Shown one piece after another: positions 10,241 through 28,745 of a DNA stretch of 64,000 nucleotides. The DNA comes from a virus (lineage: Duplodnaviria; Heunggongvirae; Uroviricota; Caudoviricetes). The notes under the pieces were generated by a model that saw nothing but the letters and a program-made list of their open reading frames with translations, was not told the DNA's origin and searched no databases. Where the stretch lies: the IMG/VR virus record IMGVR_UViG_638275430_000001, positions 86,274 through 150,273 of that record. One strand, given 5' to 3'. The translations under genes were made by a program, and so were the position numbers. The first letter of the stretch is position 1, and every line of letters starts with the position of its first letter.

Positions 10241-10376
10241 ACAACACTATGCTGGCGGTGCTGGAGTCGAACCAGCGTTACAGGCTTAACAGGCGAGTAT
10301 TTATTGCAGGAATCATTCTTGACAGAATGAATTTTACAGTGTCCTACCACTAGACGAACCGCCAGCATAATGTTGT
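10241..10376 (-). ncRNA. tRNA-bodied RNA, CCA-less, ~19-bp terminal clamp, motif hairpin in place of the anticodon arm
   Basis: Glu-like D arm CGTCTAGTGGTAGGAC; T arm GCTGG-TTCGACT-CCAGC; insert TCATTCT-GTCA-AGAATGATTCCTGCAAT. Confidence 0.8.
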
Positions 10377-10505
10377 TTGTTGTCGCGATACTGGATTCGA
10401 ACCAGTGACGTTTCTCGATGTGCCCACACGCAACGGAATCGAACCGTTCTCGATACTTCCTCGGCTAGAGGACGTTCTCCCAACTGAACTAATCGCGACA
10501 ACAAA
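10376..10505 (-). ncRNA. tRNA-like RNA with two T arms and a 14-bp terminal clamp
   Basis: D arm GTTC-AGTTGGGA-GAAC; AACGG-TTCGATT-CCGTT and ACTGG-TTCGAAT-CCAGT; no CCA. Confidence 0.75.
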
Positions 10506-10518
10506 ACTATATTAACAC

Positions 10519-10995
10519 TTATTTCTTAGAAGGTAAACCATTTTCGTTGAACTTTTTCACTGCGAGTTTGAACTTCAAACGAATACACGGCTCACGACTC
10601 GGATCCACTTTCATGATCTTGGCATTTCCACGGTGAATCAGCGAGTAAACATCTTCGATCTGATTCCGAGCAATCAGTTCCGCGAATTCTTCGCTGTATC
10701 GAATCTGGGTAGTGAAGTCAATAAACTCCTCGCCAGAAATCAGATCAACACAACGAGTTACGGCACCATCATACATGTAATCCGTATTCACAACAACACG
10801 AACATTACCAGCACCGTCGAAAGAGATCATCGGGATGCCGAGAGGACGTTTGTATGAAAGCATGATCAAACGATCTTTCTCTTTACGTTCTTCGTATTCT
10901 TTGCGCTTTTGTTCGATTCCAGCCCATTTGCCTTCTTCGACGATAGCAGTATAAGTATTCGGGAACAACAGTTTAGCCAGATATTTCATACTCAT
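10519..10995 (-). CDS. Hypothetical protein, 158 aa
   Basis: GAGG RBS. Confidence 0.7.
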   Translation of the reverse strand: MSMKYLAKLLFPNTYTAIVEEGKWAGIEQKRKEYEERKEKDRLIMLSYKRPLGIPMISFDGAGNVRVVVNTDYMYDGAVTRCVDLISGEEFIDFTTQIRYSEEFAELIARNQIEDVYSLIHRGNAKIMKVDPSREPCIRLKFKLAVKKFNENGLPSKK

Positions 10996-11025
10996 AATAA
11001 CTTCCTCATTGATTTGATATTCGTA

Positions 11026-11370
11026 TTATAGCGACTCTGGATTACCAGTCAAGCAAAAATATGCGATTGCGATCAAAATTTTACACACAACATGAAGTGC
11101 CTGATCTTGATGTAATCCAATCTTACCGTTGCACTTAGCATAATCGATGATCCAATGACTTACAAGCTCTGCCAAACTAAGCCAAACGCTCTTGGTTGCA
11201 ACGTATACCACAAGCGCATGGGTAGCACTATGGGCAGTTAGCCAGTAAATCCAATGCACTCCATAGAGTGGAGAGTTGATAGGATTCTTACCACGAGCAA
11301 TACTATCGGATTGCAGAACATAATCGGCCACAAAATGACCGATAATCAGAACATATAGAATCTCAAACAT
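11026..11370 (-). CDS. DUF3307-like membrane protein
   Basis: GHFVADYVLQ, H..HA, HWIIDYAK and DQALH pattern. Confidence 0.75.
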   Translation of the reverse strand: MFEILYVLIIGHFVADYVLQSDSIARGKNPINSPLYGVHWIYWLTAHSATHALVVYVATKSVWLSLAELVSHWIIDYAKCNGKIGLHQDQALHVVCKILIAIAYFCLTGNPESL

Positions 11371-11569
11371 TTCGCGGCGCCATCACTAAGAAAACGTGAT
11401 ATCCGTTTTGTTTGATTTGTCTGGTATGAAAGCTGAATCCGCGAGACAACAGAATAACATGATCGTGCTGGCTAATGAAATCGCTTCTGTCCATTGGATC
11501 GGTACTAACTTCGTCGTATCCGATACACTCGATAGTCCGAAGAATCCGAGATAGATTTTCAGATACCAT
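11363..11569 (-). CDS. Hypothetical protein (start MVSENL)
   Basis: Fills the gap between flanking coupled ORFs. Confidence 0.5.
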   Translation of the reverse strand: MVSENLSRILRTIECIGYDEVSTDPMDRSDFISQHDHVILLSRGFSFHTRQIKQNGYHVFLVMAPRNV

Positions 11570-11846
11570 CGTGTTCGATCTTCTCTTGCAACTCTGCTTT
11601 GCAGTTTGCCAAATGATGTTCGATAACACGTTCATCGGCAAACAATTTCAGATTCAGGCTGGTGCGATAGTGATCGCCTTCGCCAGCGTGAGAGTGAAAC
11701 CAGAACTCCACATTACCTTCATCGTCGATGTTGGCATCATTGGATTCCCAGTTAGAATCTCCATTGACTTTGATTTCGTTCGCATGTGCGACTATCGCTT
11801 GCTTGAAAGTCTTGATGTTATAAATTAGCGCATTTGTATTTCGCAT
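11559..11846 (-). CDS. Hypothetical protein, 95 aa
   Basis: GGAG RBS; coupled to the upstream gene. Confidence 0.65.
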   Translation of the reverse strand: MRNTNALIYNIKTFKQAIVAHANEIKVNGDSNWESNDANIDDEGNVEFWFHSHAGEGDHYRTSLNLKLFADERVIEHHLANCKAELQEKIEHDGI

Positions 11847-12101
11847 TTATTCTCCGTTAACTTGTTTCAAAAAATCTTCCACCTGCTTGATCCAAGACGA
11901 AACGCTTGCTTGATCGCGGAAGAAATCCATTTCAAATTTGTGTTCAAGCTCTTTGCCGTCGGCATCGAACTTCACAATGATTTCTTTCTTGTTCAGATTG
12001 AACGATACATCATCGGCCTTAAAATCCATTTTGTGGATTTTTGCCATTGCATCGCCGTACATCTTCACGTTGGCAAGTATAAACTCAATAATAGAACTCA
12101 T
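11847..12101 (-). CDS. Hypothetical protein (start MSSIIE)
   Basis: GAG RBS before the ATG at 12101. Confidence 0.6.
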   Translation of the reverse strand: MSSIIEFILANVKMYGDAMAKIHKMDFKADDVSFNLNKKEIIVKFDADGKELEHKFEMDFFRDQASVSSWIKQVEDFLKQVNGE

Positions 12102-12108
12102 GATAATC

Positions 12109-12522
12109 TCACATTGGAGTTGGAATTTGGCCGAATTCAGCTTGCAGTCGCTTGTAATGTTCCAAGCGTTGTTGCTTCTGATTAGCAATCCATGCTTCTT
12201 TCTTGACCCGGTACTCTTCGTCTTTCTGCTTTATGTGAGCAAAAGATCGCGCAATCTCGGATTCGATATCTTCCAGGATGTCGTCGATCTCTCGATCATC
12301 AACCGCGACGTCAATGCTACAAACATGGAAGTCGTCATCCCAGCCAGTCTCAAAAGTGACGCTAATCGTCATGTCTTCGAGATCCATGCTAACATTCGAA
12401 TATCGACCAGTCAACTTGCGAATGTTATCTTTATCGTGAAACTGGGAAACTTTTTCGTTCCATTCAGCTCGCAACGTCTCGACTTTCGCCACAATCTTCT
12501 TACAATCTTCACTTTTGAACAT
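12109..12522 (-). CDS. Hypothetical protein, paralog of 12524..12910
   Basis: Shared MF...DC.K, ID.I..D..S and charged C-terminal helix ending FG. Confidence 0.7.
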   Translation of the reverse strand: MFKSEDCKKIVAKVETLRAEWNEKVSQFHDKDNIRKLTGRYSNVSMDLEDMTISVTFETGWDDDFHVCSIDVAVDDREIDDILEDIESEIARSFAHIKQKDEEYRVKKEAWIANQKQQRLEHYKRLQAEFGQIPTPM

Positions 12523-12523
12523 G

Positions 12524-12910
12524 TTATTCTCCGAATTTCTCTTTAAGTTTCAGATAGGTTTCGCGTTCTTCTTGCTCTCGTTTGGCAATTTGATCCAGTC
12601 TATCTTGCTCTTTTTTCTTGCGTTCGTCAAGCTTCGATTTCAATCTGTCGCCGAACTTGGAATTCAGATCATTGATGATAGTATCGATGTCTTTTGTTCC
12701 GATGTTGGTTTCCACACAGAATACCGCACCATCTTCCCACCACATATGATCGAATGCTACATGAATATCCAGATATGAGAATCTGATATCGATTGTTGCC
12801 GTTCTTACTTTGAGATGAGTGTCTATCGTGGCAATCTCTTGATTCCATTTCAGTTGAGCAGCAAATGCCCATTGCTTCAATTTATCACAATCATTTTTGT
12901 TTATGAACAT
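12524..12910 (-). CDS. Hypothetical protein, paralog of 12109..12522
   Basis: AGGAG RBS; similarity to the neighbouring gene. Confidence 0.7.
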   Translation of the reverse strand: MFINKNDCDKLKQWAFAAQLKWNQEIATIDTHLKVRTATIDIRFSYLDIHVAFDHMWWEDGAVFCVETNIGTKDIDTIINDLNSKFGDRLKSKLDERKKKEQDRLDQIAKREQEERETYLKLKEKFGE

Positions 12911-12958
12911 GTTTGTTCTCCTTTTGTATATTCTCTCATATCCAACGCATATGTCAAT

Positions 12959-12982
12959 AAAAAAGGCACCCGAAGGTGCCTT
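12959..12982 (-). terminator. Rho-independent terminator
   Basis: GGCAC-CTTCGG-GTGCC hairpin plus U6. Confidence 0.85.
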
Positions 12983-12987
12983 AATTT

Positions 12988-14424
12988 TTAGAAGTCGATA
13001 CCGACGTAACGGTCGCTCATGATCTTGTCAAGCATGATTTGCATCGGGTTAAAGTCTTTCGCACTCAGGATTGTCTCCATGATTGCGGGACTGAAACCGG
13101 ACACCAACGCAGTGCCTTGATCATCTTTGGTCACCGGATTGTTAGTCGGGCGCGGGCAAAGATTCCAGAATACCAGCTTCGGCATTTCGTAACCAGCATC
13201 GCGGTAAGTCTGACGAATCACCTCAAAGTTGGTACGTTCGCGATCACGCATACGATAGTATCCGCTGTAACCGCCGTCAGCGATGTTGAATTCCATGTCA
13301 GACAAGACGACCATCATAGTCGGCATATCTTCTTGCGGAACTCGATTGCGTACAGCGCGATCAAGAATGATCTTGAATGCACCGGCAAAGTTGGTAGAGC
13401 CACCCCAAGGAGCGCGTCCCAGATGATTCACCATGCTTTGCAGATCGTCGCCTTTCGCTTTGATGTTGTAGAACTGAGGATTATCATCGAAGGTAATCAC
13501 TTCGTTCTTGAACACGCCACCAGAGCGTTCGCCGATATACAGACCCAGAGAAATCGCGATGTCCATAGCAGACAGACCAGCAACAGCAGTCGGAGTGCTC
13601 ATAGAACCGGAAACGTCAACCATTGCGATTACGTTTTCGGTAGAGCCAGCCATCCAGTCGCGTTGTGCTTTCCATTGCGCGTCAGCAGCAATAGAAGAAC
13701 CGGTACGCATGGACTTGATCATGTCATACGGGTAAACTGCACCAGCGTTGATCTTAGCCTCGCCCTTTTTCAGAGACTCAAGGTAAGCAACATAACGCTC
13801 GTTCGCGTTTTTCAGGAATGCTTTCTGATATCGAGCAGAAGCAACAGACGGCAGTTTACCGAACTCAATGCCATCCCACTGACGAGCACACATCTTTTGT
13901 TCAACGGTGTTCGACATACGGACGATAGTGTGACGGTATTCTTTGGCAGTCATCTGCATGGCTTTCGCTAGAATGCCAGCTTCTGAGCCTTTGCGCGGTG
14001 CCCACTTTGCAGCAAGACCGTTTTGCTTGGTCATGATTGCATCAACCATGATCGCAACAGCGGCGTCCTGAATCGGAGAGTTGAACATCGCTACCACATC
14101 TTTGAAGCGACCGATTTCAGGAGTGTTCATCAGAACAACGGTAGCATCAACCGGGTGACGGTGTGCAAGGACTTTCAGCAGGCGGATGAATTGTTCGCGT
14201 TCACCGGCACCACCGCGAATATCGCGAGCCCATTGCAGAATGCGAACAGCCCAGTCCGGAGACTCGGTATAAGCATCAACAAACATCTGAGTTAGATCTT
14301 TCCCGCGAGAGGAACCAATCTGAGAAAACAGATTCAGACACTTGTCGCCAGTAGTGTAGTTAGTAACAGCACCGTTAGCAGTGCGGGCTTGAGCTTGTAC
14401 CATTGCATTCATAAAAGTAGACAC
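12988..14424 (-). CDS. DUF2828 / vWA protein (Ro60/TROVE-like), 478 aa from GTG
   Basis: RTANGA, WARDIRGGAGER, AAKWAPR, KINAGAVYPYD, MIDAS DVSGS, GGSTN and LSDMEF; GAGGT RBS before the GTG at 14424. Confidence 0.85.
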   Translation of the reverse strand: MSTFMNAMVQAQARTANGAVTNYTTGDKCLNLFSQIGSSRGKDLTQMFVDAYTESPDWAVRILQWARDIRGGAGEREQFIRLLKVLAHRHPVDATVVLMNTPEIGRFKDVVAMFNSPIQDAAVAIMVDAIMTKQNGLAAKWAPRKGSEAGILAKAMQMTAKEYRHTIVRMSNTVEQKMCARQWDGIEFGKLPSVASARYQKAFLKNANERYVAYLESLKKGEAKINAGAVYPYDMIKSMRTGSSIAADAQWKAQRDWMAGSTENVIAMVDVSGSMSTPTAVAGLSAMDIAISLGLYIGERSGGVFKNEVITFDDNPQFYNIKAKGDDLQSMVNHLGRAPWGGSTNFAGAFKIILDRAVRNRVPQEDMPTMMVVLSDMEFNIADGGYSGYYRMRDRERTNFEVIRQTYRDAGYEMPKLVFWNLCPRPTNNPVTKDDQGTALVSGFSPAIMETILSAKDFNPMQIMLDKIMSDRYVGIDF

Positions 14425-14437
14425 AGAATTACCTCTT

Positions 14438-15037
14438 TCAGGTTTGTTTGAATTTGTCCCAATCATAGGACAGTTTGTTTTTCCAGCACTTGCGGCAGAA
14501 CGAGATATAACGTTGTTCAGCCCCAATGCAAATTTGTTCACCGCGACGGATAACATTGCCGTTATCATCAACGCGAGCTACCATACAGGATTTTCTACCA
14601 CAATCGCAGATACCAGACAGTTGTCGGATTTCATCTGAGATCGAAAGCAATGCCCTAGAGCCGGGGAACAAGTTACCGAGAAAATCGGTACGCAGTCCGT
14701 AGCACATCACAGGGATATCCAGCTTGTCAACTACATCAGATAGTTCCCATACTTGTTTTTCAGTTAGGAACTGCGCTTCATCAACAAGAACACAGGCGAT
14801 TTCGGACAGTTTACTCTCTTTTTCGATCATTGTAAACATGTTTTCATTAACATGTACACATCGGCATTCACGCTGGATACCGATACGTGATCCAATCGTG
14901 CCTTCCGTTCTCGTGTCAAATGCTGGTTTGTACAACAGAACGTTTTGATTTCTCTCGTTGTAGTTGAAAGCCACTTGCAGTAATTGAGTGCTCTTTCCAA
15001 CGTTCATCGAGGCATGGGTGAAAAATAACTTAGCCAT
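14438..15037 (-). CDS. tk: Thymidine kinase
   Basis: SMNVGKST, VLVDEAQF, YGLRTDF and C-terminal Zn cysteines. Confidence 0.95.
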   Translation of the reverse strand: MAKLFFTHASMNVGKSTQLLQVAFNYNERNQNVLLYKPAFDTRTEGTIGSRIGIQRECRCVHVNENMFTMIEKESKLSEIACVLVDEAQFLTEKQVWELSDVVDKLDIPVMCYGLRTDFLGNLFPGSRALLSISDEIRQLSGICDCGRKSCMVARVDDNGNVIRRGEQICIGAEQRYISFCRKCWKNKLSYDWDKFKQT

Positions 15038-15086
15038 TGATTCCTCTTTTCTGTTACTTTAACTCGCCTTCCATGGCAAGTAAACA

Positions 15087-15413
15087 TCAGTAACAATATT
15101 TCGCTAAAAAGTTAGCTTGGTATGAATCGTCCTTGATGTAGTATTTGATTCCACTTTGATACACAGCTTTCAATAGTACAACGGTTTCTTGTTTGAACTC
15201 GGGTACAATCGTACAGCTACCAGTTTCGATTGTGTGAACAAGAATTCCGTTATATTCAAACTCAACGCGAGCAGCTTGATAGAACTTACCTCTCCACTCT
15301 TGTGGCTTGTATCGCGTCGCCTGTGCTGTTACTTCACGAACAACAATTGGCTTTTCTGGTTCGCCGCAACCAGATAACAGCGCGACGAACACAAGAAACA
15401 TTACACGGAACAT
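15087..15413 (-). CDS. Putative lipoprotein
   Basis: Signal peptide with lipobox LSGC. Confidence 0.7.
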   Translation of the reverse strand: MFRVMFLVFVALLSGCGEPEKPIVVREVTAQATRYKPQEWRGKFYQAARVEFEYNGILVHTIETGSCTIVPEFKQETVVLLKAVYQSGIKYYIKDDSYQANFLAKYCY

Positions 15414-15422
15414 ATAATTCCC

Positions 15423-15851
15423 TTACAGAACAGGCACCACGGTGATAGCGGAACTAGCATTGTCGCCGTCCATTTTCTTGGTATAGCTCACATAAACCAT
15501 GTTCATATGCTCTTTGTCATACACACGGTCGATCACCATGTTTTTGAAAAACCAGCTTTTCTTCTGAGAGAAAATGTTTTTGCGAGACGTCAGCTCAACG
15601 CCAGAAGCAAACGGAGCAGAAACACACTGCATTGCCACGTCGGTCTGATCTTCGAAACTCAGAGTTCGAGACGGCAGATTCACATAGCAGGTGATGTTCG
15701 GATAGTCTGGATCACTGAATACTTCCACACTCAGGGTATCTTTGAATACCAGGCCGGAAGTCTCAACTTCGTACAGGGTATCGGCTTTAACAGCACCAAC
15801 AGCCAGCATGGCACACACGAACATCAGGTTTTGAATAATCTTTTTCATCAT
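15423..15851 (-). CDS. creA: CreA-family periplasmic protein
   Basis: Signal peptide; FSDPD.PNITCYV, FFK.M.IDRVYD and AITVVPV match the CreA layout. Confidence 0.8.
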   Translation of the reverse strand: MMKKIIQNLMFVCAMLAVGAVKADTLYEVETSGLVFKDTLSVEVFSDPDYPNITCYVNLPSRTLSFEDQTDVAMQCVSAPFASGVELTSRKNIFSQKKSWFFKNMVIDRVYDKEHMNMVYVSYTKKMDGDNASSAITVVPVL

Positions 15852-16051
15852 ATTTCCTTAGCAATTACTTTGCAGTTGACAACATAACACGATTTGCCGT
15901 TATACTTAAATGTAACAAAATCGCGGGTAATACTCAAATCGGTGACTATCAAGTTCCTCGCGAGGATTTTCTCTCCGCTTTCGCTTGGCAGTTGATAGTA
16001 TGTCTCATAAGCTTTATCTATGTAATAGATCGATACAACATGTTGGGCCAT
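15848..16051 (-). CDS. Hypothetical protein (start MAQHVV)
   Basis: Coupled to both flanking ORFs. Confidence 0.55.
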   Translation of the reverse strand: MAQHVVSIYYIDKAYETYYQLPSESGEKILARNLIVTDLSITRDFVTFKYNGKSCYVVNCKVIAKEI

Positions 16052-16293
16052 TATTTCAGATCCCAGATAACGGAACAAGTGGCATTTGTGACGTAGTATT
16101 GACGCTCGTTGAGCATAAACATCCAACCATCACCAATTCGACTCAACTCACCGGCACGAATGCCGTTAATCAGCATACCGTCTGGAGTCTTCACATATCC
16201 GCCGTTTTGAAACCAGCAAGTAATCATGCCAGGTACCGCGAACACAGAGCTATTAAACAACATCAGAGCCACAAACGCAAGAACTTTTTTCAT
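16051..16293 (-). CDS. Small secreted protein, paralog of 16297..16518
   Basis: MKKVLAFVAL signal peptide; TCWFQNGGYVK. Confidence 0.75.
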   Translation of the reverse strand: MKKVLAFVALMLFNSSVFAVPGMITCWFQNGGYVKTPDGMLINGIRAGELSRIGDGWMFMLNERQYYVTNATCSVIWDLK

Positions 16294-16296
16294 TTT

Positions 16297-18428: not shown

Positions 18429-18444
18429 ACGATCTCCAAATATA

Positions 18445-18527
18445 GGCGTTAGAAGGCGGGACTCGAACCCGCACCCCACTGGGTTTCTGCCCAGTAGCTC
18501 TTCCAATTGAGACTTACTACCAACACC
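18445..18527 (-). ncRNA. Degenerate tRNA-like element, CCA-less, extended acceptor stem
   Basis: GGTGTTGG/CTAACGCC stem, D-loop TGG, ACTGGG-CAGAAA-CCCAGT arm, canonical T arm. Confidence 0.65.
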
Positions 18528-18533
18528 TAATAT

Positions 18534-18809
18534 TTAGATCTCTTCGGCAGCGTCTGCTACCATTTCAGCCAACTTATCTTCGTTGTCGCTAACAATCAAA
18601 TAACGAGCCTCATTGATTTCCCAGCGATACGGACACAATTGTCCATAGCAGTATTCGGCACCACTTTTCATGATGTCTCTGATTTCATCGGCACAATCTT
18701 CGATGTAATCCTCGTCCACGATATCTTTTCTGGCGAGGAATGCAATGATTTCCCAGCGATGATGAACAACTTTCTTTTTGTAACCTTCAATCATCAGAAT
18801 CATGTTCAT
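18534..18809 (-). CDS. Hypothetical protein (start MNMILM)
   Basis: Internal ATG of an ORF-track frame. Confidence 0.55.
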   Translation of the reverse strand: MNMILMIEGYKKKVVHHRWEIIAFLARKDIVDEDYIEDCADEIRDIMKSGAEYCYGQLCPYRWEINEARYLIVSDNEDKLAEMVADAAEEI

Positions 18810-21365: not shown

Positions 21366-21374
21366 GTAACTAGA

Positions 21375-21476
21375 CGCTAAGGTAGAGAATCGAACTCTAC
21401 ATGAAATCAATACCGACGGGGCAATATATATCCCGACTTTCGAGAAGCTATCTCATTGCACTTAAAAGCATTAGCG
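21375..21476 (-). ncRNA. tRNA-like element with acceptor stem and T arm only
   Basis: CGCTAA/TTAGCG stem with GTAGAG-TTCGATT-CTCTAC; non-tRNA middle; no CCA. Confidence 0.55.
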
Positions 21477-21501
21477 ATTTCACCTTTCAAAGCGATTAAA
21501 C

Positions 21502-21910: not shown

Positions 21911-21923
21911 ATTATTCTTTATT

Positions 21924-22022
21924 TAGTACGCTATGATGCGAGTGGTGGATTTGAACCACCGACCTTTAGCTTATGAGGCTAACGAGATACCGGACTTCTC
22001 CAACTCGCATCATAGCGCACTA
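21924..22022 (-). ncRNA. Initiator-Met-like tRNA(CAT), CCA-less, 20-bp terminal clamp
   Basis: fMet-like D arm and TTCAAAT T loop; TAGTGCGCTATGATGCGAGT pairs with ACTCGCATCATAGCGTACTA. Confidence 0.8.
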
Positions 22023-22029
22023 ATCAATT

Positions 22030-22349: not shown

Positions 22350-22381
22350 ATAAACTCCTTTAATAGCAAGTCTATTTAGTA

Positions 22382-22591: not shown

Positions 22592-22596
22592 GAATC

Positions 22597-22671
22597 TGGT
22601 GGTGCATGGTAGATTCGAACTACCGACCGACGGCGTATGAAACCGCAGCTCTACCACTGAGCTAATGCACC
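22597..22671 (-). tRNA. tRNA-Met(CAT) (elongator or Ile2)
   Basis: Cloverleaf, loop TT-CAT-AC, CCA. Confidence 0.85.
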
Positions 22672-22890
22672 AGACGGTATCCAGAATAACAGATACCGAG
22701 GCAATAATCAACCATTCGGTTGCAAAGAGATTTAACCAACAACAAACTACTCTCATTGTATGTCGTGTTGGAAGCACTTCTCAGATCGTCCGTGGTAAAC
22801 ATCACGCGCCCCGTCTGAGCCTAATCTATTGCTTTTTTATAGCCTATCGCCACGCAACAAGTATATGGCCTATTGCTTGACTCGACTATT

Positions 22891-22967
22891 TGGTACGCCG
22901 CCCGGGACTCGAACCCGGAACCTATCGGTTAAAAGCCGATTGCTCTAAACCATTGAGCTAACAGCGC
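22891..22967 (-). tRNA. tRNA-Lys(TTT)
   Basis: Cloverleaf, loop CT-TTT-AA, CCA. Confidence 0.95.
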
Positions 22968-22973
22968 ATTGTT

Positions 22974-23047
22974 TGGCAGGGGATGTAAGAATCGAACTCA
23001 CGTCAACGGATTTGGAATCCGCCGCATAACCATTTTGCTAATCCCCT
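22974..23047 (-). tRNA. tRNA-Trp(CCA)
   Basis: Cloverleaf, loop TT-CCA-AA, CCA. Confidence 0.95.
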
Positions 23048-23240
23048 ATATTCTTACCAGCTATCAAAATCCGTAATGGGAACACTCTTTGCTCCATCTT
23101 TGACAGCTTTTGCACTAACCACAGTACCGATTGATCCGCTTTCGTATTCAACATCAATCAGATTCGTTTCGTGCATCTGCATGAGTTCCATCATACGCTG
23201 AATCTCAAGCATTGTAAACCTTACTTTATTCATTTTTCAC

Positions 23241-23441
23241 CTACAGAATAGGACTTTCGATTGTGACGTCAAGAACGGAATAATACGTGCTGTATTCCGA
23301 ACCCATGTCGTCGTAATGTGCGCGAACTTTACTTTCGGCATCGTCTATGTCTTCCGCTTCTACCAATTTAATGGTATCGAATGACTTGGATGATCCCATG
23401 TATTCGCTTTTCATATAACGTATCTTAGCAAGAAACAACAT
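23241..23441 (-). CDS. Hypothetical protein (start approximate)
   Basis: ORF between tRNA genes. Confidence 0.5.
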   Translation of the reverse strand: MLFLAKIRYMKSEYMGSSKSFDTIKLVEAEDIDDAESKVRAHYDDMGSEYSTYYSVLDVTIESPIL

Positions 23442-23847
23442 CGTTGTCAACCTTTAACGTATAGATTTTCGAAGTGTGTCCAGTCATAGGCTGAACTCCG
23501 CAAATTTCCTCAGCAATCAGCTTGGGAACAAATCTAGGAACAACTGTGAGTCTATCGAAAATCGCTTGATTTCCTTTATCCCAGTTCTGTTGTCTTTTGA
23601 TCGCCGCAATCTGTGTTGACTTGATATCAAGTTCTTCCGCTTTCAGAAGCTCGAATTCTAAGTCATTGCTATAGGTAACACCATACGCGATTACGATATC
23701 AAAGTCAATAGGACATTCAGGCGTTTCGGTATATCTAATGATCTGTCTCAGTGTTCGAACATCATCTTGAAACCAACCGCAGTTGATAAAGCATTGTCCG
23801 ACACGTTCGCCGTTCTTCATGAACAGCGCCCAACTAGGTGCGCTCAT
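23425..23847 (-). CDS. Hypothetical protein, 140 aa
   Basis: ATG ORF; the C-terminal VQPMTG motif also occurs in T4-like major capsid protein fragments. Confidence 0.6.
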   Translation of the reverse strand: MSAPSWALFMKNGERVGQCFINCGWFQDDVRTLRQIIRYTETPECPIDFDIVIAYGVTYSNDLEFELLKAEELDIKSTQIAAIKRQQNWDKGNQAIFDRLTVVPRFVPKLIAEEICGVQPMTGHTSKIYTLKVDNDVVSC

Positions 23848-23991
23848 ACTTTATTTCTCAATAGAGTGAATCACAGATAATAGTGAGGACAAGAAGTACA
23901 TCCGTTAGGATGGCATGTTGCCGTTCTATCATCACAAATAAAAACAACAGGAATTAATACCATATTAGCTTTCATTTTTATTCCTTGTTAT

Positions 23992-24066
23992 TGGAGTACC
24001 GGATCTGATTTGAACAGACGTAAAAGTGATTTGCAATCACTTGCCTTACCGCTTGGCTACCGGCAC
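23992..24066 (-). tRNA. tRNA-Cys(GCA)
   Basis: Cloverleaf, loop TT-GCA-AA, U73-CCA. Confidence 0.95.
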
Positions 24067-24073
24067 GTTAATC

Positions 24074-24147
24074 TGGAGCCTCATTCGGGAATCGAACCCG
24101 ACACTACGACTTGGAAGGACGGTATGTGACCACTACACCAATGAGGC
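24074..24147 (-). tRNA. tRNA-Gly(TCC)
   Basis: Loop CT-TCC-AA, U73-CCA; anticodon stem has two mismatches. Confidence 0.85.
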
Positions 24148-24220
24148 ATTTCTGAGTAGTCGAGCCGACTTATCCGTATTCTTTCAACGGTGAGCTGATA
24201 GCTACTCTAAACTTTAAATT

Positions 24221-24296
24221 TGGTGGAGAAAATGGGACTCGAACCCACGACCCCCAGCTTGCAAGGCTAGTGCTCTCCCATCTGAGCTATTTCCCC
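24221..24296 (-). tRNA. tRNA-Ala(TGC)
   Basis: Cloverleaf, G3:U70, loop CT-TGC-AA, CCA. Confidence 0.95.
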
Positions 24297-24364
24297 AAAT
24301 TCTAATAGATACTCGCAAGTATACATTAGAATAGGCACTTTATGCAAGTACCTACGCAAGTCTT

Positions 24365-24510
24365 CGGATTCACATACGGGAGCGGTGACTAACCCGCGTT
24401 ACTTTTATATGCTGTTCCCTCTCAGCCGCACATCCAACTACCGAAGCAAAGGAGTGCTATCCATTAATAGTAGAGTTTTGTTTTTGTATTGATTGCAGAA
24501 GTGAATCCAT
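24365..24510 (-). ncRNA. Motif RNA with a multi-hairpin interior
   Basis: GGATTCAC-TTCTGCAATCAAT ... GTGAATCC-G terminal stem. Confidence 0.7.
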
Positions 24511-24571
24511 GCAATTTCAAAGAGCAATTGAACTACTGTCGGGTAAGTTCATTTTCCTGCTAGGCAGAAAC

Positions 24572-24658
24572 TGGTGGAGAAGACTAGCTTCGATTCTAGT
24601 AAGGCTTGTAAAGCGGGCCCATCACGAGGACCTGAGACTCTTTATCTCTTACTTCTCC
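24572..24658 (-). ncRNA. Degenerate class II tRNA-like RNA with CCA
   Basis: GGAGAAG/CTTCTCC-A-CCA; GGTCC-TCGTGAT-GGGCC; non-canonical D and T loops. Confidence 0.6.
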
Positions 24659-24665
24659 ATAAAAC

Positions 24666-24740
24666 TGGCGGTGCATACGGGAATCGAACCCGTATCTTGT
24701 GATAGACAGTCACGAATAATAGCCATTATACTAATGCACC
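24666..24740 (-). tRNA. tRNA-Asp(GTC)
   Basis: Cloverleaf, loop CT-GTC-TA, G73-CCA. Confidence 0.95.
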
Positions 24741-24746
24741 TAAATT

Positions 24747-24821
24747 TGGTAGTCCCGAATGGTATCGAACCATCCACATCCGCGTTATCAGCACGGCGCT
24801 CTACCTCTGAGCTACGGGACT
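24747..24821 (-). tRNA. tRNA-Ile(GAT)
   Basis: Cloverleaf, loop CT-GAT-AA, CCA. Confidence 0.95.
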
Positions 24822-24826
24822 AAAGA

Positions 24827-24936
24827 CTGAAAGACTTTTTAACTGCCACCTGGACTCTTGTGCTAGAGAGTTGAGGAATCGAACCTCACCGTTTTCTTAA
24901 AATAGAAAAGTTATATTGATTGCTGAAATCTTTCTT
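24827..24936 (-). ncRNA. Motif RNA with a circularly permuted tRNA-like domain (YrlA-like layout)
   Basis: GAAAGATTT-CAGCAATCAAT ... AAGTCTTTC stem enclosing a hairpin, a T arm TGAGG-TTCGATT-CCTCA and a closed stem ACTCT/AGAGT. Confidence 0.7.
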
Positions 24937-24947
24937 AGCACGGTAAA

Positions 24948-25048
24948 TCATTATTGCGGAGGAGGTTGGACTCGAACCAACATAGGGTTATTACCCGCAG
25001 ATTAACAGTCTGCCGCTCAACCTTTGAGCCACACCTCCGCAATAATGA
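24948..25048 (-). ncRNA. tRNA-Asn(GTT)-like, long variable arm, CCA-less, terminal clamp
   Basis: Loop CT-GTT-AA; variable arm GGGTAATAACCC; TCATTATTGCGGAGG pairs with CCTCCGCAATAATGA. Confidence 0.8.
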
Positions 25049-25063
25049 CTTGCAAATAAGAAA

Positions 25064-25127
25064 CGGAATGAACTTTTAAGGCTATTTCAAATAATGGCTT
25101 TTTAAGTTAGTTGCTGAACTCATTCCT
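25064..25127 (-). ncRNA. Minimal motif RNA
   Basis: GGAATGAG-TTCAGCAACTAA ... TTCATTCC-G. Confidence 0.7.
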
Positions 25128-25137
25128 ATCTTTGTTT

Positions 25138-25167
25138 ACTATACACTACTATTTAGTGACTGTAAAC
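25138..25167 (-). promoter_or_regulatory. T4-type early promoter with an embedded CTAAATA
   Basis: GTTTACA-N17-TATAGT. Confidence 0.75.
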
Positions 25168-25187
25168 AAAGCATCTTAAATTTTTGA

Positions 25188-25242
25188 CAGGCTCACTTTT
25201 TGATTTCATCCGCAGAAAAGTTTTGATTGCTGAACGGAGCCT
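25188..25242 (-). ncRNA. Minimal motif RNA
   Basis: AGGCTC-CGTTCAGCAATCAA ... GAGCCT-G. Confidence 0.7.
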
Positions 25243-25249
25243 TATAAAG

Positions 25250-25279
25250 ATTGTATCACGTTTTATCAACGTTGTAAAC
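25250..25279 (-). promoter_or_regulatory. T4-type early promoter
   Basis: GTTTACA-N17-TACAAT. Confidence 0.75.
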
Positions 25280-25317
25280 TATCTTTTATTTATGCTCTAC
25301 TTTAAGAGCATGTGATA

Positions 25318-25347
25318 ATGATAGCATACGGTTCATAGAGTGTAAAC
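25318..25347 (-). promoter_or_regulatory. T4-type early promoter
   Basis: GTTTACA-N17-TATCAT. Confidence 0.7.
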
Positions 25348-25367
25348 ATTCTTTATCACGATATCCC

Positions 25368-25507
25368 AACATTGCTTCATGCTACTGCCGGTTGAGTCCG
25401 AAGACCGACTAAGGGTTCACTTCCGCTTTAGATTTACGGCATACCGTGATAAAGACAGTCCGCATCGCAAATTGGACACAACGGCATCGCAATCTGCCAC
25501 TAATGTT
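25368..25507 (-). ncRNA. Candidate late structured RNA
   Basis: Begins just after CTAAATA (25507-25513); AACATT/AATGTT terminal stem; internal TTGCGATGC repeat and CTTCGG hairpin. Confidence 0.45.
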
Positions 25508-25611
25508 ATTTAGTGTCTACTGTCAATCAGCTTTGGGTGGGTGCTGATTCCGTCCCACGAGCGTGAGCCACCGATACACGCTCGGAAAGATCTTACGGTT
25601 TATCGAATTCT

Positions 25612-25836
25612 TTACTTGTCGTAATAATACGGCTTACATTGACCTTCGAACTTGGTTTTACCGCCGAAGAATCCAGTACGATTCTCGCCATATGTATCTT
25701 GTGCATTTTCTTCCGCGACTTTCAGCGCGGCTCTGCACTCTGCTTCGGTGTCAAACTTCTCAATTGCGTGACTATGTGAGCCCCAATTAGTACCGAAGTT
25801 AACGAACAACGAAGTAATCAACAAGAACTTAATCAT
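25612..25836 (-). CDS. Small secreted or membrane protein
   Basis: Hydrophobic N-terminus; AGGTG RBS. Confidence 0.6.
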   Translation of the reverse strand: MIKFLLITSLFVNFGTNWGSHSHAIEKFDTEAECRAALKVAEENAQDTYGENRTGFFGGKTKFEGQCKPYYYDK

Positions 25837-25861
25837 AACATCACCTATTGGTATAGTAAAC

Positions 25862-26149
25862 TTATTTAGTATCGCAGGAATACACTTCTTTCACGCGAGT
25901 AACAGAACGTTTGGTAACGTTGATCGAACTACCCTGATACCAGCGAGACTCTGAATCCAGCACTTTGTCAACAACTGCCTCCGATTTGGGTAGAATAGCG
26001 TCGAAACAGGTTTTACCCATACTGTCTTTCATGTGTGACCAGATAGACAGTGAGAAACGTTCGATCTTGTTACAGACTTTTACCTTGCACATTTCTTCGG
26101 ACTGAGCACCAAAAGACAACAGCGCAAGCAGAATTACAGCAGCTTTCAT
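25862..26149 (-). CDS. Small secreted Cys-containing protein (start MKAAVI)
   Basis: Signal peptide ending AQS. Confidence 0.65.
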   Translation of the reverse strand: MKAAVILLALLSFGAQSEEMCKVKVCNKIERFSLSIWSHMKDSMGKTCFDAILPKSEAVVDKVLDSESRWYQGSSINVTKRSVTRVKEVYSCDTK

Positions 26150-26472
26150 TCTTCGATCTCCACAACTGCACCGGTTTTTATAAGATGATCCCACAACTTT
26201 TGATAAGAGATCGAGTGATCTTCCTTTTCGTTACAGCAGGAACAACCTTGCTCATAGTACACAGTGATCCAATTCATGTCAAGCTTATAACCGCAGCCAT
26301 AGAAATGACGACTGCCGTGACTCGGTTTACCCAGTTCATAGTTGACGACATCTTCCAGAGCGTTATCAATACCGTCAGAGTCGATGAAGTCTTCCGGTGC
26401 GTCTTGTTTACGCAAAGCGTCCATAAAGTCAAACAGATTATCAATTTGCATTTTATTTTCCTCATTAGCCAT
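26146..26472 (-). CDS. Hypothetical protein, 108 aa
   Basis: Coupled ORF. Confidence 0.6.
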   Translation of the reverse strand: MANEENKMQIDNLFDFMDALRKQDAPEDFIDSDGIDNALEDVVNYELGKPSHGSRHFYGCGYKLDMNWITVYYEQGCSCCNEKEDHSISYQKLWDHLIKTGAVVEIEE

Positions 26473-26547
26473 AGTAATACGTTATCGCATTAATATGGCG
26501 GCTCTTTCGAGCCACCTCTTAGAAATCAGGCCATTCGTCTTTCACGA

Positions 26548-27651
26548 TTAGACCTCCTTGAACTCCACGATACTTGAAATCTCGTTGAACTCGCCGTATT
26601 TCTTCATTGATGGAACAAGATTTCCGTTCTCGCCATGAATCAGATCTGGGTTTTCTTTCCACTTATTAGCTGATACGTATTCTTGCACAGCTTTCGTGTC
26701 CAAGTCAACAACTAATTTCGGACTAATTTTCAGTGGATATTCGCGAGTCCGATCATTCTCCGCACCAGCTACCACGATTCGAGTCATCAGATCGGCATGA
26801 TACAGATGATCGTTGTCCTGACTGCCGTATTGTTGTGGGTTAAACTCGATGTTGAGTTCACACAACATACTAACAAACTTACGAAGTCCGATATGCAGCT
26901 CTGCATTAGCGGCAGTGAGTTTAATAACACGGTTTGTCAAGTTGTTTTTAGAGTAGGGACCCATTCCTACATTGACAACACTATCGTATTCCCAAGAGAA
27001 TCCCATACTGAGATATTCGTTGAACAGATCTTTTGTCAGTTCTTCGCGAATGATCTCGGGCGCTTTCTGAATTTCTTCCATTCTGAACGCGAGTTCTTCT
27101 TTAGTCAAGCGTTTTTTATCCGGATCTCGAAGTTCTAGTTTGGCGAAACTTTCGCGGATCTTTTTGTGCGACTCAATAACGTATTCTTTGTTCCAAGAGT
27201 GTTCAAACGTGCGGTCGTATTCTGCTACCATCAGATCATATACTTTTCGCTTGATTACCATGAACATAACCTGAGATTTCTTACCGCCCATAAACGATGA
27301 GGCTGGTTGAATATACAAAGCTTCCTCATGCATTAAGTCTTGATATGACAGCTTGTTCAGATCGAATAGATCGTCGATGTTAACATTGCGATCTTCGTCA
27401 CAGACGATATGAGTCTTTACCATGTCTTGGAACGCTTGGTATGCGGCATTATCTTCGATCTCGAAGTTACCATAGTCGTCATACGTCGCATACAATGGAA
27501 GATGCAGTGCAAGCTGGTATCGATCCCAGTTATAGCAACCAGGTGCGGCTGGGATAGTTTCTCCGTGACAAACGAGTGCCAGTAAAACAACCGGCTCGCC
27601 ACAAGTAACGATATGACGACTAACGCCACAAATAGTATTGAAAGAACCCAC
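26548..27651 (-). CDS. Hypothetical protein, 367 aa
   Basis: Long GTG ORF with AAGGA RBS. Confidence 0.8.
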   Translation of the reverse strand: MGSFNTICGVSRHIVTCGEPVVLLALVCHGETIPAAPGCYNWDRYQLALHLPLYATYDDYGNFEIEDNAAYQAFQDMVKTHIVCDEDRNVNIDDLFDLNKLSYQDLMHEEALYIQPASSFMGGKKSQVMFMVIKRKVYDLMVAEYDRTFEHSWNKEYVIESHKKIRESFAKLELRDPDKKRLTKEELAFRMEEIQKAPEIIREELTKDLFNEYLSMGFSWEYDSVVNVGMGPYSKNNLTNRVIKLTAANAELHIGLRKFVSMLCELNIEFNPQQYGSQDNDHLYHADLMTRIVVAGAENDRTREYPLKISPKLVVDLDTKAVQEYVSANKWKENPDLIHGENGNLVPSMKKYGEFNEISSIVEFKEV

Positions 27652-27671
27652 GATATTTTCCTTTTGGTTAC

Positions 27672-27696
27672 AAAAAAGCCCCAGTTAAGGGGCTTT
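27672..27696 (-). terminator. Rho-independent terminator
   Basis: AAGCCCC/GGGGCTT hairpin plus U tract. Confidence 0.8.
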
Positions 27697-27703
27697 CGAA
27701 TTG

Positions 27704-28093
27704 TTAAGCGATAGCTTCCAGGACAGCTTCCAGAGATTCTTCGATCATGACGCGATTCGGTACGTCATACTCGGAAGTGCGGAAACTCAACAGAACTTCA
27801 CCATGGATGTTCTCATGCAGACCAACGATCTTGTCAGCACCAACTACGAACTTCTCGATACCGCGGTGTTCAACCGGAGTAACAACGGCGCGCTTGAGGT
27901 AGCAATCTTTCAGTTTCAGTGCCAGATCTTCGAAACGTTCAGAAACGGTATACACAGTCGGCAGTTGACCGTCAACTTTTACAGTCAGCAGGGTCTTACC
28001 AGAGCGCAGCTTTACCAGGCCAACAACTTTCTCGGAGTTGACTACAAAACGGGTGATGTTACCAGCTACCGGGGATACAACAAAACGGGACAT
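27704..28093 (-). CDS. Hypothetical protein with an internal tandem duplication
   Basis: Two ~60-aa halves (RFVV..EKVVGL / KFVV..DKIVGL). Confidence 0.7.
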   Translation of the reverse strand: MSRFVVSPVAGNITRFVVNSEKVVGLVKLRSGKTLLTVKVDGQLPTVYTVSERFEDLALKLKDCYLKRAVVTPVEHRGIEKFVVGADKIVGLHENIHGEVLLSFRTSEYDVPNRVMIEESLEAVLEAIA

Positions 28094-28102
28094 TTTAGTT
28101 CC

Positions 28103-28339
28103 TTAAACAGTGATAGAAAATACATACTGGTCATTCTGAATGATTCCAGCGTTGTTGTCAACGAAAATTTTGAAATTCATTTCCTTTGACGTTTCGATGT
28201 GAGCTTTCGCAGCTTCTAATGCTACTACACTCGGGTATTCATGTCTAGCACCCGCGAAAATACAGATGCCGTTTAAACCATAGACTCGGCCACTAAAGCT
28301 TCCGTCTTCATCTTGGTCTAGTATACAGATTAATTTCAA
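28103..28339 (-). CDS. Hypothetical protein, 78 aa (start uncertain)
   Basis: Co-oriented ORF. Confidence 0.5.
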   Translation of the reverse strand: MKLICILDQDEDGSFSGRVYGLNGICIFAGARHEYPSVVALEAAKAHIETSKEMNFKIFVDNNAGIIQNDQYVFSITV

Positions 28340-28358
28340 CGTGTCAATCTCTTTTATT

Positions 28359-28447
28359 TGGTGCGAGTGGTGAGGATCGAACTCACATGGCGCGTTAGCA
28401 CCGGCAAATTTTAAGTCTGCTGCCTATACCGATTCGGCTACACTCGC
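28359..28447 (-). tRNA. tRNA-Leu(TAA)
   Basis: Class II cloverleaf, loop CT-TAA-AA, CCA. Confidence 0.95.
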
Positions 28448-28452
28448 AATTC

Positions 28453-28537
28453 TGGTGGGAGTAGTGGGATTCGAACCCACACGACTATTGTCAACAAGGT
28501 TTGAGCTTGCCCTGTATGCCAGTTCCAGCATACTCCC
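28453..28537 (-). tRNA. tRNA-Leu(CAA)
   Basis: Class II cloverleaf, loop CT-CAA-AC, CCA. Confidence 0.95.
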
Positions 28538-28624
28538 AAAAATAATGCCAGTCCGGATCTCTTCTCGTATAAATTGGACTTTATGGGATTTGTCAGATCC
28601 GACTGGACTTTTTCTTTTGTGTAA

Positions 28625-28745
28625 AACACATTGTCCGGGTGGCGGGACTCGAACCCACAACCCACTGCTTCTTCTGTACTCTCGTTAGAAAGCACAGGAG
28701 AAGGCAGATGCGCTATCCTGTTGCGCCACACCCGGACAATGTGTT
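28625..28745 (-). ncRNA. tRNA-Arg(TCT)-like with a 28-nt anticodon-arm insert, CCA-less, 17-bp clamp
   Basis: TCTGC-CTTCT[CCTGTGCTTTCTAACGAGAGTACAGAAG]AA-GCAGT; AACACATTGTCCGGGTG pairs with CACCCGGACAATGTGTT. Confidence 0.8.

What the first reader, a model, noticed from the sequence alone, without database searches (positions are those of the whole stretch)
10241..28745. A class of CCA-less tRNA mimics clamped by leader-trailer pairing
Seen: all 21 canonical tRNA genes encode CCA. Six tRNA-like genes do not, and in each the acceptor stem is extended by flanking complementarity: 10241 (~19 bp), 10376 (14 bp), 18445 (~11 bp), 21924 (20 bp), 24948 (~17 bp with one mismatch) and 28625 (17 bp). 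Four read N73-CA(A/T) instead of CCA. Each also has another anomaly. Inference: the clamps are selected, perhaps blocking 3' trimming and CCA addition to give stable uncharged decoys for anticodon nucleases or tRNA sensors, or creating substrates for RNase III cleavage or circularisation.
Basis: partly seen in the sequence, partly recalled or inferred. Interest (0 to 1): 0.75.

Follow-up and report, generated by a model that had tools for sequence, protein, structure and literature searches.

The report
Phage tRNA genes sealed by flanking helices
In this T4-like Aeromonas phage, six tRNA or tRNA-like genes lack the usual CCA end and have flanks that pair into a conserved helix about 13 bp long, most likely a cutting signal for an unusual way of making their ends.

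Summary
All 21 ordinary tRNA genes encode CCA, and their flanks extend the acceptor stem by 0-1 bp. The six CCA-less genes carry helices of 12-14 bp beyond the acceptor stem; C2 and C3 are irregular. The helices persist in five related phages, with compensatory changes. Their wobble pairs are G.U only on the transcribed strand, so selection acts on the RNA.

The class is wider than this phage. Among 484 tRNAs from 82 distant phage loci, flank pairing is bimodal: 0-6 bp or 13-16 bp. The helix beyond the acceptor is nearly always 12-16 bp (mode 13), with a G.U near position 11. The bases kept before a predicted staggered cut are always a prefix of CCA (N73-C or N73-CC).

Best reading (about 0.4): rRNA-style processing stems cut by a double-strand RNase such as RNase III, then CCA completion. 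Main rival (about 0.3): permanently sealed, uncharged mimics. These might partner the phage's Ro60-like DUF2828-vWA protein, whose gene neighbourhood conserves the C0/C1 RNA family. Nothing was tested at the RNA level.

I found no paper describing this class. This scan noted a similar clamped phage tRNA earlier on other DNA (e1-1836832).

The parts
10241..10376 (-). C1: insert-type tRNA-like RNA. 12-bp clamp plus 7-bp acceptor stem, G73-CAT, no CCA.
10376..10505 (-). C2: tRNA-like RNA with a second T-arm-like hairpin. 7-bp clamp, plus 6 more pairs after a bulge. C73-AAC.
18438..18535 (-). C3: tRNA-like RNA with a long irregular terminal stem, a 6-nt 'anticodon' loop and no CCA.
   Evidence: (weak tRNA-Sec hit)
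21923..22023 (-). C4: cloverleaf tRNA with anticodon CAU, U73-CAT and a 14-bp clamp. It lies between tRNA-Glu and tRNA-Tyr.
24945..25051 (-). C5: tRNA-Asn (GUU) with a long variable arm, G73-CAA and a 13-bp clamp.
28622..28748 (-). C6: tRNA-Arg (UCU) body with a 28-nt insert that pairs with the anticodon, A73-CAA and a 13-bp clamp.
10114..10232 (-). C0: paralogue of C1 (insert-type tRNA-like RNA) with encoded U73-CCA and no clamp.
12988..14412 (-). DUF2828 + DUF7788/vWA protein with a Ro60-like fold. The likely start is the ATG at 14412.

Best explanation
The clamps are leader-trailer processing stems, like those that flank bacterial rRNAs. In the precursor RNA, the 5' leader pairs with N73 and the 3' trailer. 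This forms about 13 bp that stack on the acceptor stem (7 bp) and T stem (5 bp), giving a helix of roughly 25 bp centred on the tRNA's 5' end. A double-strand-specific endonuclease, most plausibly host RNase III, cuts at that centre with a 2-nt stagger. The cut frees a body with a 5' phosphate at +1 and a 3' end of N73-C, or N73-CC where N73 is unpaired. A CCA-adding enzyme then completes the end; the phage encodes a candidate, and the host enzyme would also serve. C4, C5 and the insert-free form of C6 would become usable tRNAs (AUA/AUG-type, Asn, Arg). C1-C3 and the insert form of C6 would become CCA-ended tRNA-like RNAs like C0. What is shown: the helices, their selection at the RNA level, their geometry and the CCA-prefix rule. 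What is inferred: the nuclease, the cut site and the CCA addition.
For: (1) Flank pairing is all-or-none. It is 0-1 bp in the 21 canonical genes against 13-14 bp here. In 82 other loci, 477 tRNAs show 0-6 bp and 7 show 13-16 bp. In 83 random viral tRNA loci, 0 of 313 tRNAs reach 9 bp. (2) The pairing acts in RNA. There are 16 G.U pairs and no A.C mismatch among 157 clamp positions. Compensatory changes occur in the C4 and C5 clamps. C4 sits 20-24 nt from its neighbours, which leaves no room for its own promoter, so both arms should be transcribed. (3) The geometry looks like a ruler. In 12 clamps from at least 5 phage lineages, the helix beyond the acceptor is 12-16 bp (mode 13), with a 5'G.3'U pair at position 11 in 9 of the 12, followed by 2-3 A-U pairs (and flanks). 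(4) CCA-prefix rule. Where -1 pairs with N73, position 74 is C and 75 is A (C1, C4, C5, C6, L013, L034). Where N73 is unpaired, positions 74-75 are CC and 76 is U or A (L062, L079, L088, L009 twice). (5) Clamped and open forms are interchangeable within one family. C0 and most relatives encode CCA without a clamp, while C1, L056 and L063:1672 are clamped and lack CCA. (6) In phages whose tRNA genes otherwise encode CCA, the true exceptions are the clamped genes. (7) Discriminator bases fit the amino-acid identity recalled for E. coli tRNAs (G73 Asn, U73 Gly, C73 His, G73 Ser and Asp), and the anticodon loops of C4 and C5 are invariant while the stems change. No other Asn or Arg tRNA exists in the genome. 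(8) The genome encodes a PolyA_pol-family, CCA-adding-like enzyme.
Against: Four of the six RNAs cannot decode as encoded. C6 carries its anticodon-burying insert in 4 of 5 lineages, and that insert itself shows compensatory changes, so translation is not what is selected there. The clamped His genes have U rather than G at -1, so they would not make a normal tRNA-His. In C1, C2, C4 and C6 the clamps are more conserved in sequence than the bodies, which fits a sequence-specific binding partner better than a shape-reading nuclease. 146 CCA-less tRNA genes in other phages have no clamp, so a clamp is not needed to mature CCA-less tRNAs. Complete clamp-bearing phages such as JH2, L062, L056 and L063 lack their own CCA-adding enzyme. 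The RNase III rules I used come from memory and were not tested here.
Confidence: 0.4

Rival explanations
1. The RNAs are permanently sealed, uncharged tRNA mimics. The helix hides the 3' end, so no CCA can be added and no amino acid attached. The stable RNA works by binding proteins, above all the phage's Ro60-like DUF2828-vWA protein, as a Y-RNA analogue whose terminal stem is the Ro-binding stem and whose tRNA-like body recruits or titrates tRNA-binding factors.
For: The DUF2828-vWA protein folds like Ro60 over its whole length: the top 13 PDB matches are all Ro60/TROVE, with E from 8e-8 to 2.5e-5 and TM-scores of 0.47-0.62 normalised to the query. Its gene opens or adjoins tRNA clusters in many distant phages: 44 of 80 loci have tRNAs within 10 kb. 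The C0/C1 RNA family lies within 0.1-0.9 kb of that gene in 9 of the 11 loci listed (L063 and L066 lie about 2.7-2.9 kb away). In an unselected sample it occurs almost only in DUF2828-positive records. A mycobacteriophage homologue has a weak YrlA-like RNA next to it. A preprint reports that the Ro60-like gp130 of phage Bas63 sits upstream of tRNA genes, counters the ppl defence, and may use some 'tRNAs' as Y RNAs (10.1101/2024.10.10.617714). Clamp sequences are more conserved than the bodies. Different RNAs in one lineage share similar arms: C1 and C5; and L013, L034 and L056.
Against: Most members of the DUF2828-linked C0/C1 family have a free encoded CCA and no clamp. The feature conserved next to the gene is therefore the insert hairpin, not the clamp. 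No clamp has a GNCGAA-type Ro-binding motif, and none hits Rfam YrlA. From general knowledge, a perfect 20-bp helix should be cut by RNase III in a gamma-proteobacterial host. Clamped canonical tRNAs are not consistently next to the DUF2828 gene.
Confidence: 0.3
2. The RNAs are decoys for anticodon nucleases or tRNA sensors and act independently of the Ro-like protein. Uncharged look-alikes with real anticodon loops (CAU, Asn, Arg, His, Gly) soak up host tRNA-cleaving defences.
For: The anticodon loops of C4 and C5 are invariant while the stems diverge. The types involved (Asn, Arg, His, Met/Ile) overlap the targets I recall for colicin E5, colicin D and VapC-type nucleases. Phage tRNAs are known to counter tRNA-targeting defences (cited).
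Against: C1, C2, C3 and most C6 alleles have no exposed anticodon loop yet share the clamp. A decoy has no need for a helix of fixed length or for the CCA-prefix rule. No nuclease partner was identified.
Confidence: 0.12
3. The repeats are a DNA-level feature or plain decay. The inverted repeats would be remnants or borders of mobile or recombining tRNA cassettes, or the genes would be degenerating pseudogenes whose flank complementarity has no RNA role.
For: The C4 and C6 bodies differ by 25-50% between relatives while their flanks stay 93-100% identical, as cassette replacement would give. C6 is missing in phiWae14, where a plus-strand ORF sits instead. T-arm remnants lie at about 21370-21500 and 24827-24936.
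Against: All 16 wobble pairs are G.U on the sense strand, with no A.C mismatch. Compensatory changes keep the pairing. The geometry recurs in unrelated phages with unrelated arm sequences. The inserts and stems inside the bodies also covary.
Confidence: 0.05

Closest known systems
Leader-trailer processing stems of bacterial rRNA operons, cut by RNase III
   Same: The 5' leader and 3' trailer of a stable RNA pair into a long helix that abuts the mature domain. The helix is conserved through compensatory change.
   Different: Here the helix encloses a single tRNA or tRNA-like RNA, directly continues the acceptor stem, is only about 13 bp long and replaces the encoded CCA. Cleavage has not been shown.
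Bacterial and phage Y RNAs (YrlA, Rfam RF02553; D. radiodurans Yrn1) with Ro60/Rsr (PMC4201824; Thermus phage phiLo Ro60, PMC12135203)
   Same: A tRNA-like module is joined to a stem formed by the RNA's two ends, and the RNA is encoded in a genome with a Ro60-like protein. In Yrn1 the terminal stem leaves from the acceptor position, as it does here.
   Different: YrlA is circularly permuted (T arm, closed acceptor, D arm) and carries a GNCGAA-type Ro site. C1-C6 are not permuted, lack that motif and do not hit RF02553. The protein belongs to DUF2828 and is not a Pfam TROVE member.
CCA-less tRNA genes of phage T4 (Pro, Ser, Ile, Gln) and the T4 stable RNAs rnaC and rnaD
   Same: These are T4-type phage tRNA-cluster genes without an encoded CCA. 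rnaC has a T arm, partly paired ends and no known function.
   Different: The T4 CCA-less genes have no leader-trailer pairing. There is no sequence similarity to rnaC or rnaD beyond the T arm.
Ro60-like gp130 upstream of the tRNA block in Felixounavirus Bas63 (preprint 10.1101/2024.10.10.617714)
   Same: The same gene arrangement appears in JH2, which has a DUF2828 gene followed by the tRNA cluster. The authors also suggest that some of the 'tRNAs' are Y RNAs.
   Different: The preprint points to no specific RNA. JH2 has one clamped, CCA-less Ser-like gene that the preprint does not describe.

Membership tests
Canonical tRNA (Rfam RF00005) | Cloverleaf that scores above the family threshold | tested here: met
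   C4 scores 64.5 bits, C5 58, C6 49.8 and C0 53. C1, C2 and C3 do not reach the threshold; C3 gives only a 26-bit tRNA-Sec hit.
Canonical tRNA (Rfam RF00005) | Free single-stranded 3' N73-CCA end, encoded as in all neighbouring genes | tested here: not met
   None of the six encodes CCA. N73 and the following 12-13 nt pair with the leader.
Canonical tRNA (Rfam RF00005) | 7-nt anticodon loop that can decode | tested here: inconclusive
   Present and invariant in C4 and C5. Buried by an insert in C6, except in phiAS5. Absent or abnormal in C1-C3.
YrlA / Y RNA (RF02553) | Match to the covariance model and the permuted order T arm, closed acceptor stem, D arm | tested here: not met
   None of the six gives a YrlA hit at E <= 5. 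Their order is the normal tRNA order.
YrlA / Y RNA (RF02553) | Ro-binding stem with a conserved GNCGAA-type motif | tested here: not met
   The motif is absent from all clamp arms read.
YrlA / Y RNA (RF02553) | Encoded next to a Ro60 orthologue | tested here: inconclusive
   A protein with the Ro60 fold lies 2.5 kb from C2-C1-C0. The C0/C1 family is tightly linked to this gene elsewhere. The clamp itself is not.
RNase III leader-trailer processing stem | Continuous helix of about two turns formed by leader and trailer at the border of the mature RNA | tested here: met
   The helix is 19-21 bp continuous (clamp plus acceptor stem) and about 25 bp with the stacked T stem, in C1, C4, C5 and C6.
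RNase III leader-trailer processing stem | Cleavage by RNase III with a 2-nt 3' overhang | not testable with these tools
   The only support is indirect: the bases kept up to the predicted cut are C or CC.
Ro60 / TROVE protein (for ORF 12988-14412) | HEAT-repeat ring plus vWA domain fold | tested here: met
   The AlphaFold2 model has pLDDT 86.8. The Foldseek top 13 hits are all Ro60/TROVE. Pfam assigns DUF2828 + DUF7788/vWA, not TROVE.

The most novel reading that the evidence does not exclude
A portable clamp of fixed length (about 13 bp) turns selected phage tRNAs and tRNA-like RNAs into sealed 'pro-tRNAs'. Their release, or their use as Y-RNA-like partners, would be controlled by a double-strand RNase and by the widespread phage Ro60-like DUF2828 protein. 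That would make it a previously unrecognised RNA layer of phage counter-defence that bypasses RNase P and RNase E.
Probability: 0.25. Interest if true: 0.85.

Novelty: new variant of a known kind. Interest (0 to 1): 0.72.

Why it matters
Phage tRNA clusters are now seen as weapons against host tRNA-cleaving defences, but how individual phage tRNAs are matured or held back is hardly studied. A discrete, conserved class of tRNA genes that swaps the CCA end for a helix of fixed length would mean one of two things. Either there is a second, RNase P-independent route for making tRNA ends in bacteria, or there is a family of deliberately unchargeable mimics. Either result gives a concrete RNA candidate for the Ro60-like proteins found in hundreds of phages. 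One of those proteins is reported in a preprint to counter a defence system. The geometric rules found here (13 bp, a G.U pair at position 11, retention of a CCA prefix) make the question directly testable with simple end-mapping.

Tried and rejected
- Rfam YrlA gave no hit on any of the six RNAs or on the 24827-24936 element. The mycobacteriophage CELFI spacer gave only a weak hit (21.7 bits).
- I considered that the clamp is simply how CCA-less tRNAs are processed. I rejected this as a general rule because 146 CCA-less tRNA genes in DUF2828 loci and 219 in control loci have no clamp.
- I considered that N73-CA(A/T) marks the class. I rejected this because CAA follows N73 in most unclamped tRNA genes of several phage lineages.
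- I considered that a phage CCA-adding enzyme is required. It is not: four complete or nearly complete clamp-bearing phage genomes lack one.
- Circularisation by RtcB: no RtcB gene is present in the genome.
- Homology to T4 rnaC or rnaD: none beyond the T arm.
- I tried reading the C1 and C0 inserts as introns. No excision restores a normal anticodon arm, and no splicing system is evident.
- Genome-level association of clamps with DUF2828 is only suggestive: 7 of 484 tRNAs against 0 of 313, p = 0.047. One GC-rich 9-bp clamp-like element occurs in a DUF2828-negative record (L119).
- Three further DUF2828 phages (S13, LAh_6, Astolliot) showed no standard clamp in the 15 kb sampled.
Full report
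**What the window is.** The window lies in a 233,234-bp virus record. It is a T4-type Aeromonas phage (Straboviridae). Its closest relatives in the phage collection are Ah1, avDM12-TAAL and PX29 at about 87% identity, and phiAS5 and phiWae14 at about 80%. All tRNA genes lie on the minus strand. ARAGORN finds 23 and Rfam 24, and there are none elsewhere in the genome.

**Checking the observation.**
- Each of the 21 canonical genes has N73-CCA, and its flanks extend the acceptor stem by 0-1 bp.
- C4 (21923-22023, anticodon CAU), C5 (24945-25051, Asn GUU) and C6 (28622-28748, Arg UCU body) lack CCA. They have 13-14 uninterrupted pairs starting at -1:N73.
- C1 (10241-10376) and C2 (10376-10505) are tRNA-like RNAs missed by the tRNA model. 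A detector for 'T arm followed by a long helix' finds C1, C2, C4, C5 and C6 and nothing else in the genome. Shuffled genomes give about 0.1 hits.
- C3 (18438-18535) has an irregular stem: 9 bp, then an interrupted A-U run.
- Folding z-scores range from -2.6 to -9.8.
- A seventh odd gene, C0 (10114-10232), has a large insert but keeps U73-CCA and has no clamp.

**Are the clamps selected?** All six genes are present in the relatives, except that C6 is missing from phiWae14.
- Of 101 terminal-helix pairs, 14 show compensatory double changes and 6 show one-sided changes that keep pairing. Clear cases lie inside the C4 clamp (U-A to A-U) and the C5 clamp (C-G to U-A; A-U to G-C).
- Across 12 clamps from this and other phages, 140 positions are Watson-Crick and 16 are G.U on the transcribed strand. 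None is A.C. Selection on DNA hairpins would not give this asymmetry.
- C4 lies 20-24 nt from tRNA-Glu and tRNA-Tyr, so both of its arms must sit in the cluster transcript.
- In C1, C2, C4 and C6 the arms are more conserved (90-100%) than the bodies (50-90%). C5 is the reverse.

**The class is wider than this phage.** I fetched 80 viral contigs that encode a relative of the neighbouring DUF2828 protein, plus two annotated phages.
- Among 484 ARAGORN tRNAs in these loci, flank pairing is sharply bimodal. 477 tRNAs have 0-6 bp and 7 have 13-16 bp: His three times, and Gly, CAU, Asp and Ser once each.
- In 83 randomly hit viral tRNA loci, none of 313 tRNAs reaches 9 bp.
- In phages whose tRNA genes otherwise encode CCA, nearly every true CCA-less exception has leader-trailer pairing. 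Examples are L034, L062, L079, L088 (Felixounavirus JH2), L008 and L043.
- Two clamped genes in L009 do encode CCA, paired with an upstream UGG.
- CCA-less status is enriched among clamped genes (8 of 10 against 146 of 497, p = 0.0016). It is not universal in them.

**Geometry.**
- Measured outward from the acceptor stem, the clamps are 12, 13, 13, 13, 13, 13, 14, 14, 14, 14 and 16 bp. C2 is 7 + 6 bp with a bulge.
- Nine of the 12 have a 5'G.3'U pair at position 11, followed by two or three A-U pairs, so the trailer arm ends in UUU(A).
- Where -1 pairs with N73, position 74 is always C and 75 is A. Where N73 is unpaired, positions 74-75 are CC and 76 is U or A.
- A staggered double-strand cut centred on the +1 position would leave a 2-nt 3' overhang. 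It would therefore leave N73-C or N73-CC, exactly the part that matches CCA.
- The clamp (13 bp) and the stacked acceptor and T stems (12 bp) are about equal halves around that point.
- What I know of RNase III (two-turn substrates, 2-nt stagger, limit products of 12-15 bp) comes from memory and was not tested here.

**The Ro60-like neighbour.**
- ORF 12988-14412 is DUF2828 + DUF7788/vWA and belongs to PHROG 850, 'RNA-binding protein'.
- An AlphaFold2 model (pLDDT 86.8) matches Ro60/TROVE structures over its whole length. These fill the top 13 Foldseek ranks.
- Homologues occur in 701 phage records. Some are annotated 'Ro-like RNA binding protein'.
- The gene often directly precedes the tRNA cluster, as in JH2, L034, L056 and L062. 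44 of the 80 loci have tRNAs within 10 kb.
- A preprint reports the same arrangement for Bas63 gp130, finds that it counters the ppl defence, and guesses that some of the 'tRNAs' are Y RNAs.
- Phage Ro60 with Y-like RNAs has been characterised biochemically in Thermus phage phiLo.

**The C0/C1 family.**
- C0, C1 and RNAs from L056, L017 and L034 align well. They share a GNNA-type hairpin closed by CU/AG and a UUAC-GCAA segment in place of the anticodon arm.
- A covariance model built from them finds strong hits within 0.1-0.9 kb of the DUF2828 gene in L056, L034 (two copies), L008 (two copies), L017, L039, L082, L079, L062 and L011.
- In the unselected control loci, long hits fall in L158, L161, L153, L138 and L109, all of which are DUF2828-positive records. 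L145, an incomplete record without the gene, also has hits. 15 other DUF2828-negative records have none, apart from one weak hit.
- This RNA family is therefore the protein's conserved neighbour.
- Most members carry an encoded CCA and no clamp. C1, L056 and L063:1672 are the clamped, CCA-less versions.

**Weighing the explanations.**
- Clamped and open forms alternate within one RNA family and across many tRNA types. Together with the fixed length and the CCA-prefix rule, this suggests the clamp is a modular way of making ends, not a separate functional class. I therefore favour a processing stem cut by a double-strand RNase, followed by CCA completion (0.4).
- The phage's own PolyA_pol-family enzyme fits this reading but is not required, because several complete clamp-bearing phages lack one.
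- Against this reading: four of the six RNAs cannot decode. The C6 insert is itself structurally conserved. The clamped His genes lack G-1. The arms are conserved in sequence.
- These points keep the sealed-mimic or Ro-partner reading alive (0.3) and, less so, a nuclease-decoy role (0.12).
- A DNA-level or pseudogene explanation is unlikely (0.05).
- The two leading readings are not exclusive. A Ro-like protein could gate or assist trimming of such helices, as I recall Rsr does for 23S rRNA ends in Deinococcus.

**Comparison with known systems and novelty.**
- T4's CCA-less tRNA genes have no clamps. T4 rnaC and rnaD share only the T arm with these RNAs.
- YrlA membership fails on topology, motif and model score.
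- I found no paper describing clamped phage tRNA genes.
- This scan had already noted a clamped AUA-type phage tRNA in another genome (e1-1836832), and another first-stage note proposed the Ro60 link for this stretch.
- I rate the finding as a new variant of known kinds (processing stems, tRNA mimics). The structure is real and general. Its function is unproven.

Noticed in passing
window 12988-14412 (-): A DUF2828-vWA protein with a full-length Ro60-like predicted fold. Homologues occur in 701 phage records and often open the tRNA cluster.
   Followed up: yes
window 10114-10232 (-) and L008, L017, L034, L056, L063, L207: C0 and C1 belong to an apparently unnamed family of tRNA-like RNAs. A GNNA-type hairpin domain replaces the anticodon arm. 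Members are tightly linked to DUF2828 genes and are often tandem pairs. GenBank annotates them as intron-containing tRNA-Leu, -Lys or -Ser, or as tRNA-OTHER.
   Followed up: yes
L019, L022, L030, L041, L054, L060, L061, L069, L070: In several metagenomic phage lineages nearly all tRNA genes end in N73-CAA instead of N73-CCA, with no clamp. This genome-wide convention is unexplained.
   Followed up: partly
window 24827-24936 (-): A perfect T arm is followed by a closed stem and a D-like remnant, lying between tRNA-Ile and C5. It may be a permuted YrlA-like element, but it gives no Rfam YrlA hit at E <= 5.
   Followed up: partly
window 21370-21500 (-): A T-arm hairpin (TAGAG-TTCGATT-CTCTA) with a CGCTAA/TTAGCG closing helix but no recognisable D arm. 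It looks like a tRNA remnant or another tRNA-like RNA.
   Followed up: no
window 28760-29254 (-): An Acb1 (anti-CBASS) family protein immediately upstream of C6. Relatives annotate it as '57B RNA ligase'.
   Followed up: partly
genome G000 196617-202194 (outside the window): A PolyA_pol-family (CCA-adding-like) ORF of 347 aa and a T4 Rnl1-type RNA ligase lie about 3 kb apart. The genome has no RtcB.
   Followed up: partly
L005:21229-21331 (phiAS5), L001:15797-15888 (Ah1), L003:21431-22171 (phiWae14): The C6 insert is absent in phiAS5, which has a clean clamped tRNA-Arg. The long variable arm of C5 is absent in Ah1. C6 is replaced by a plus-strand ORF in phiWae14.
   Followed up: partly
L089:5485-5607 (Mycobacterium phage CELFI): The 350-nt gap after the DUF2828 'RNA-binding protein' gene holds a permuted T arm, closed stem and D arm. 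It gives a weak YrlA match (21.7 bits).
   Followed up: partly
L207:11193-11281 (Cronobacter phage S13): A tRNA-Ser gene whose flanks form a 10-bp helix that leaves G73-CCA unpaired in an internal loop. This is a different clamp layout.
   Followed up: no
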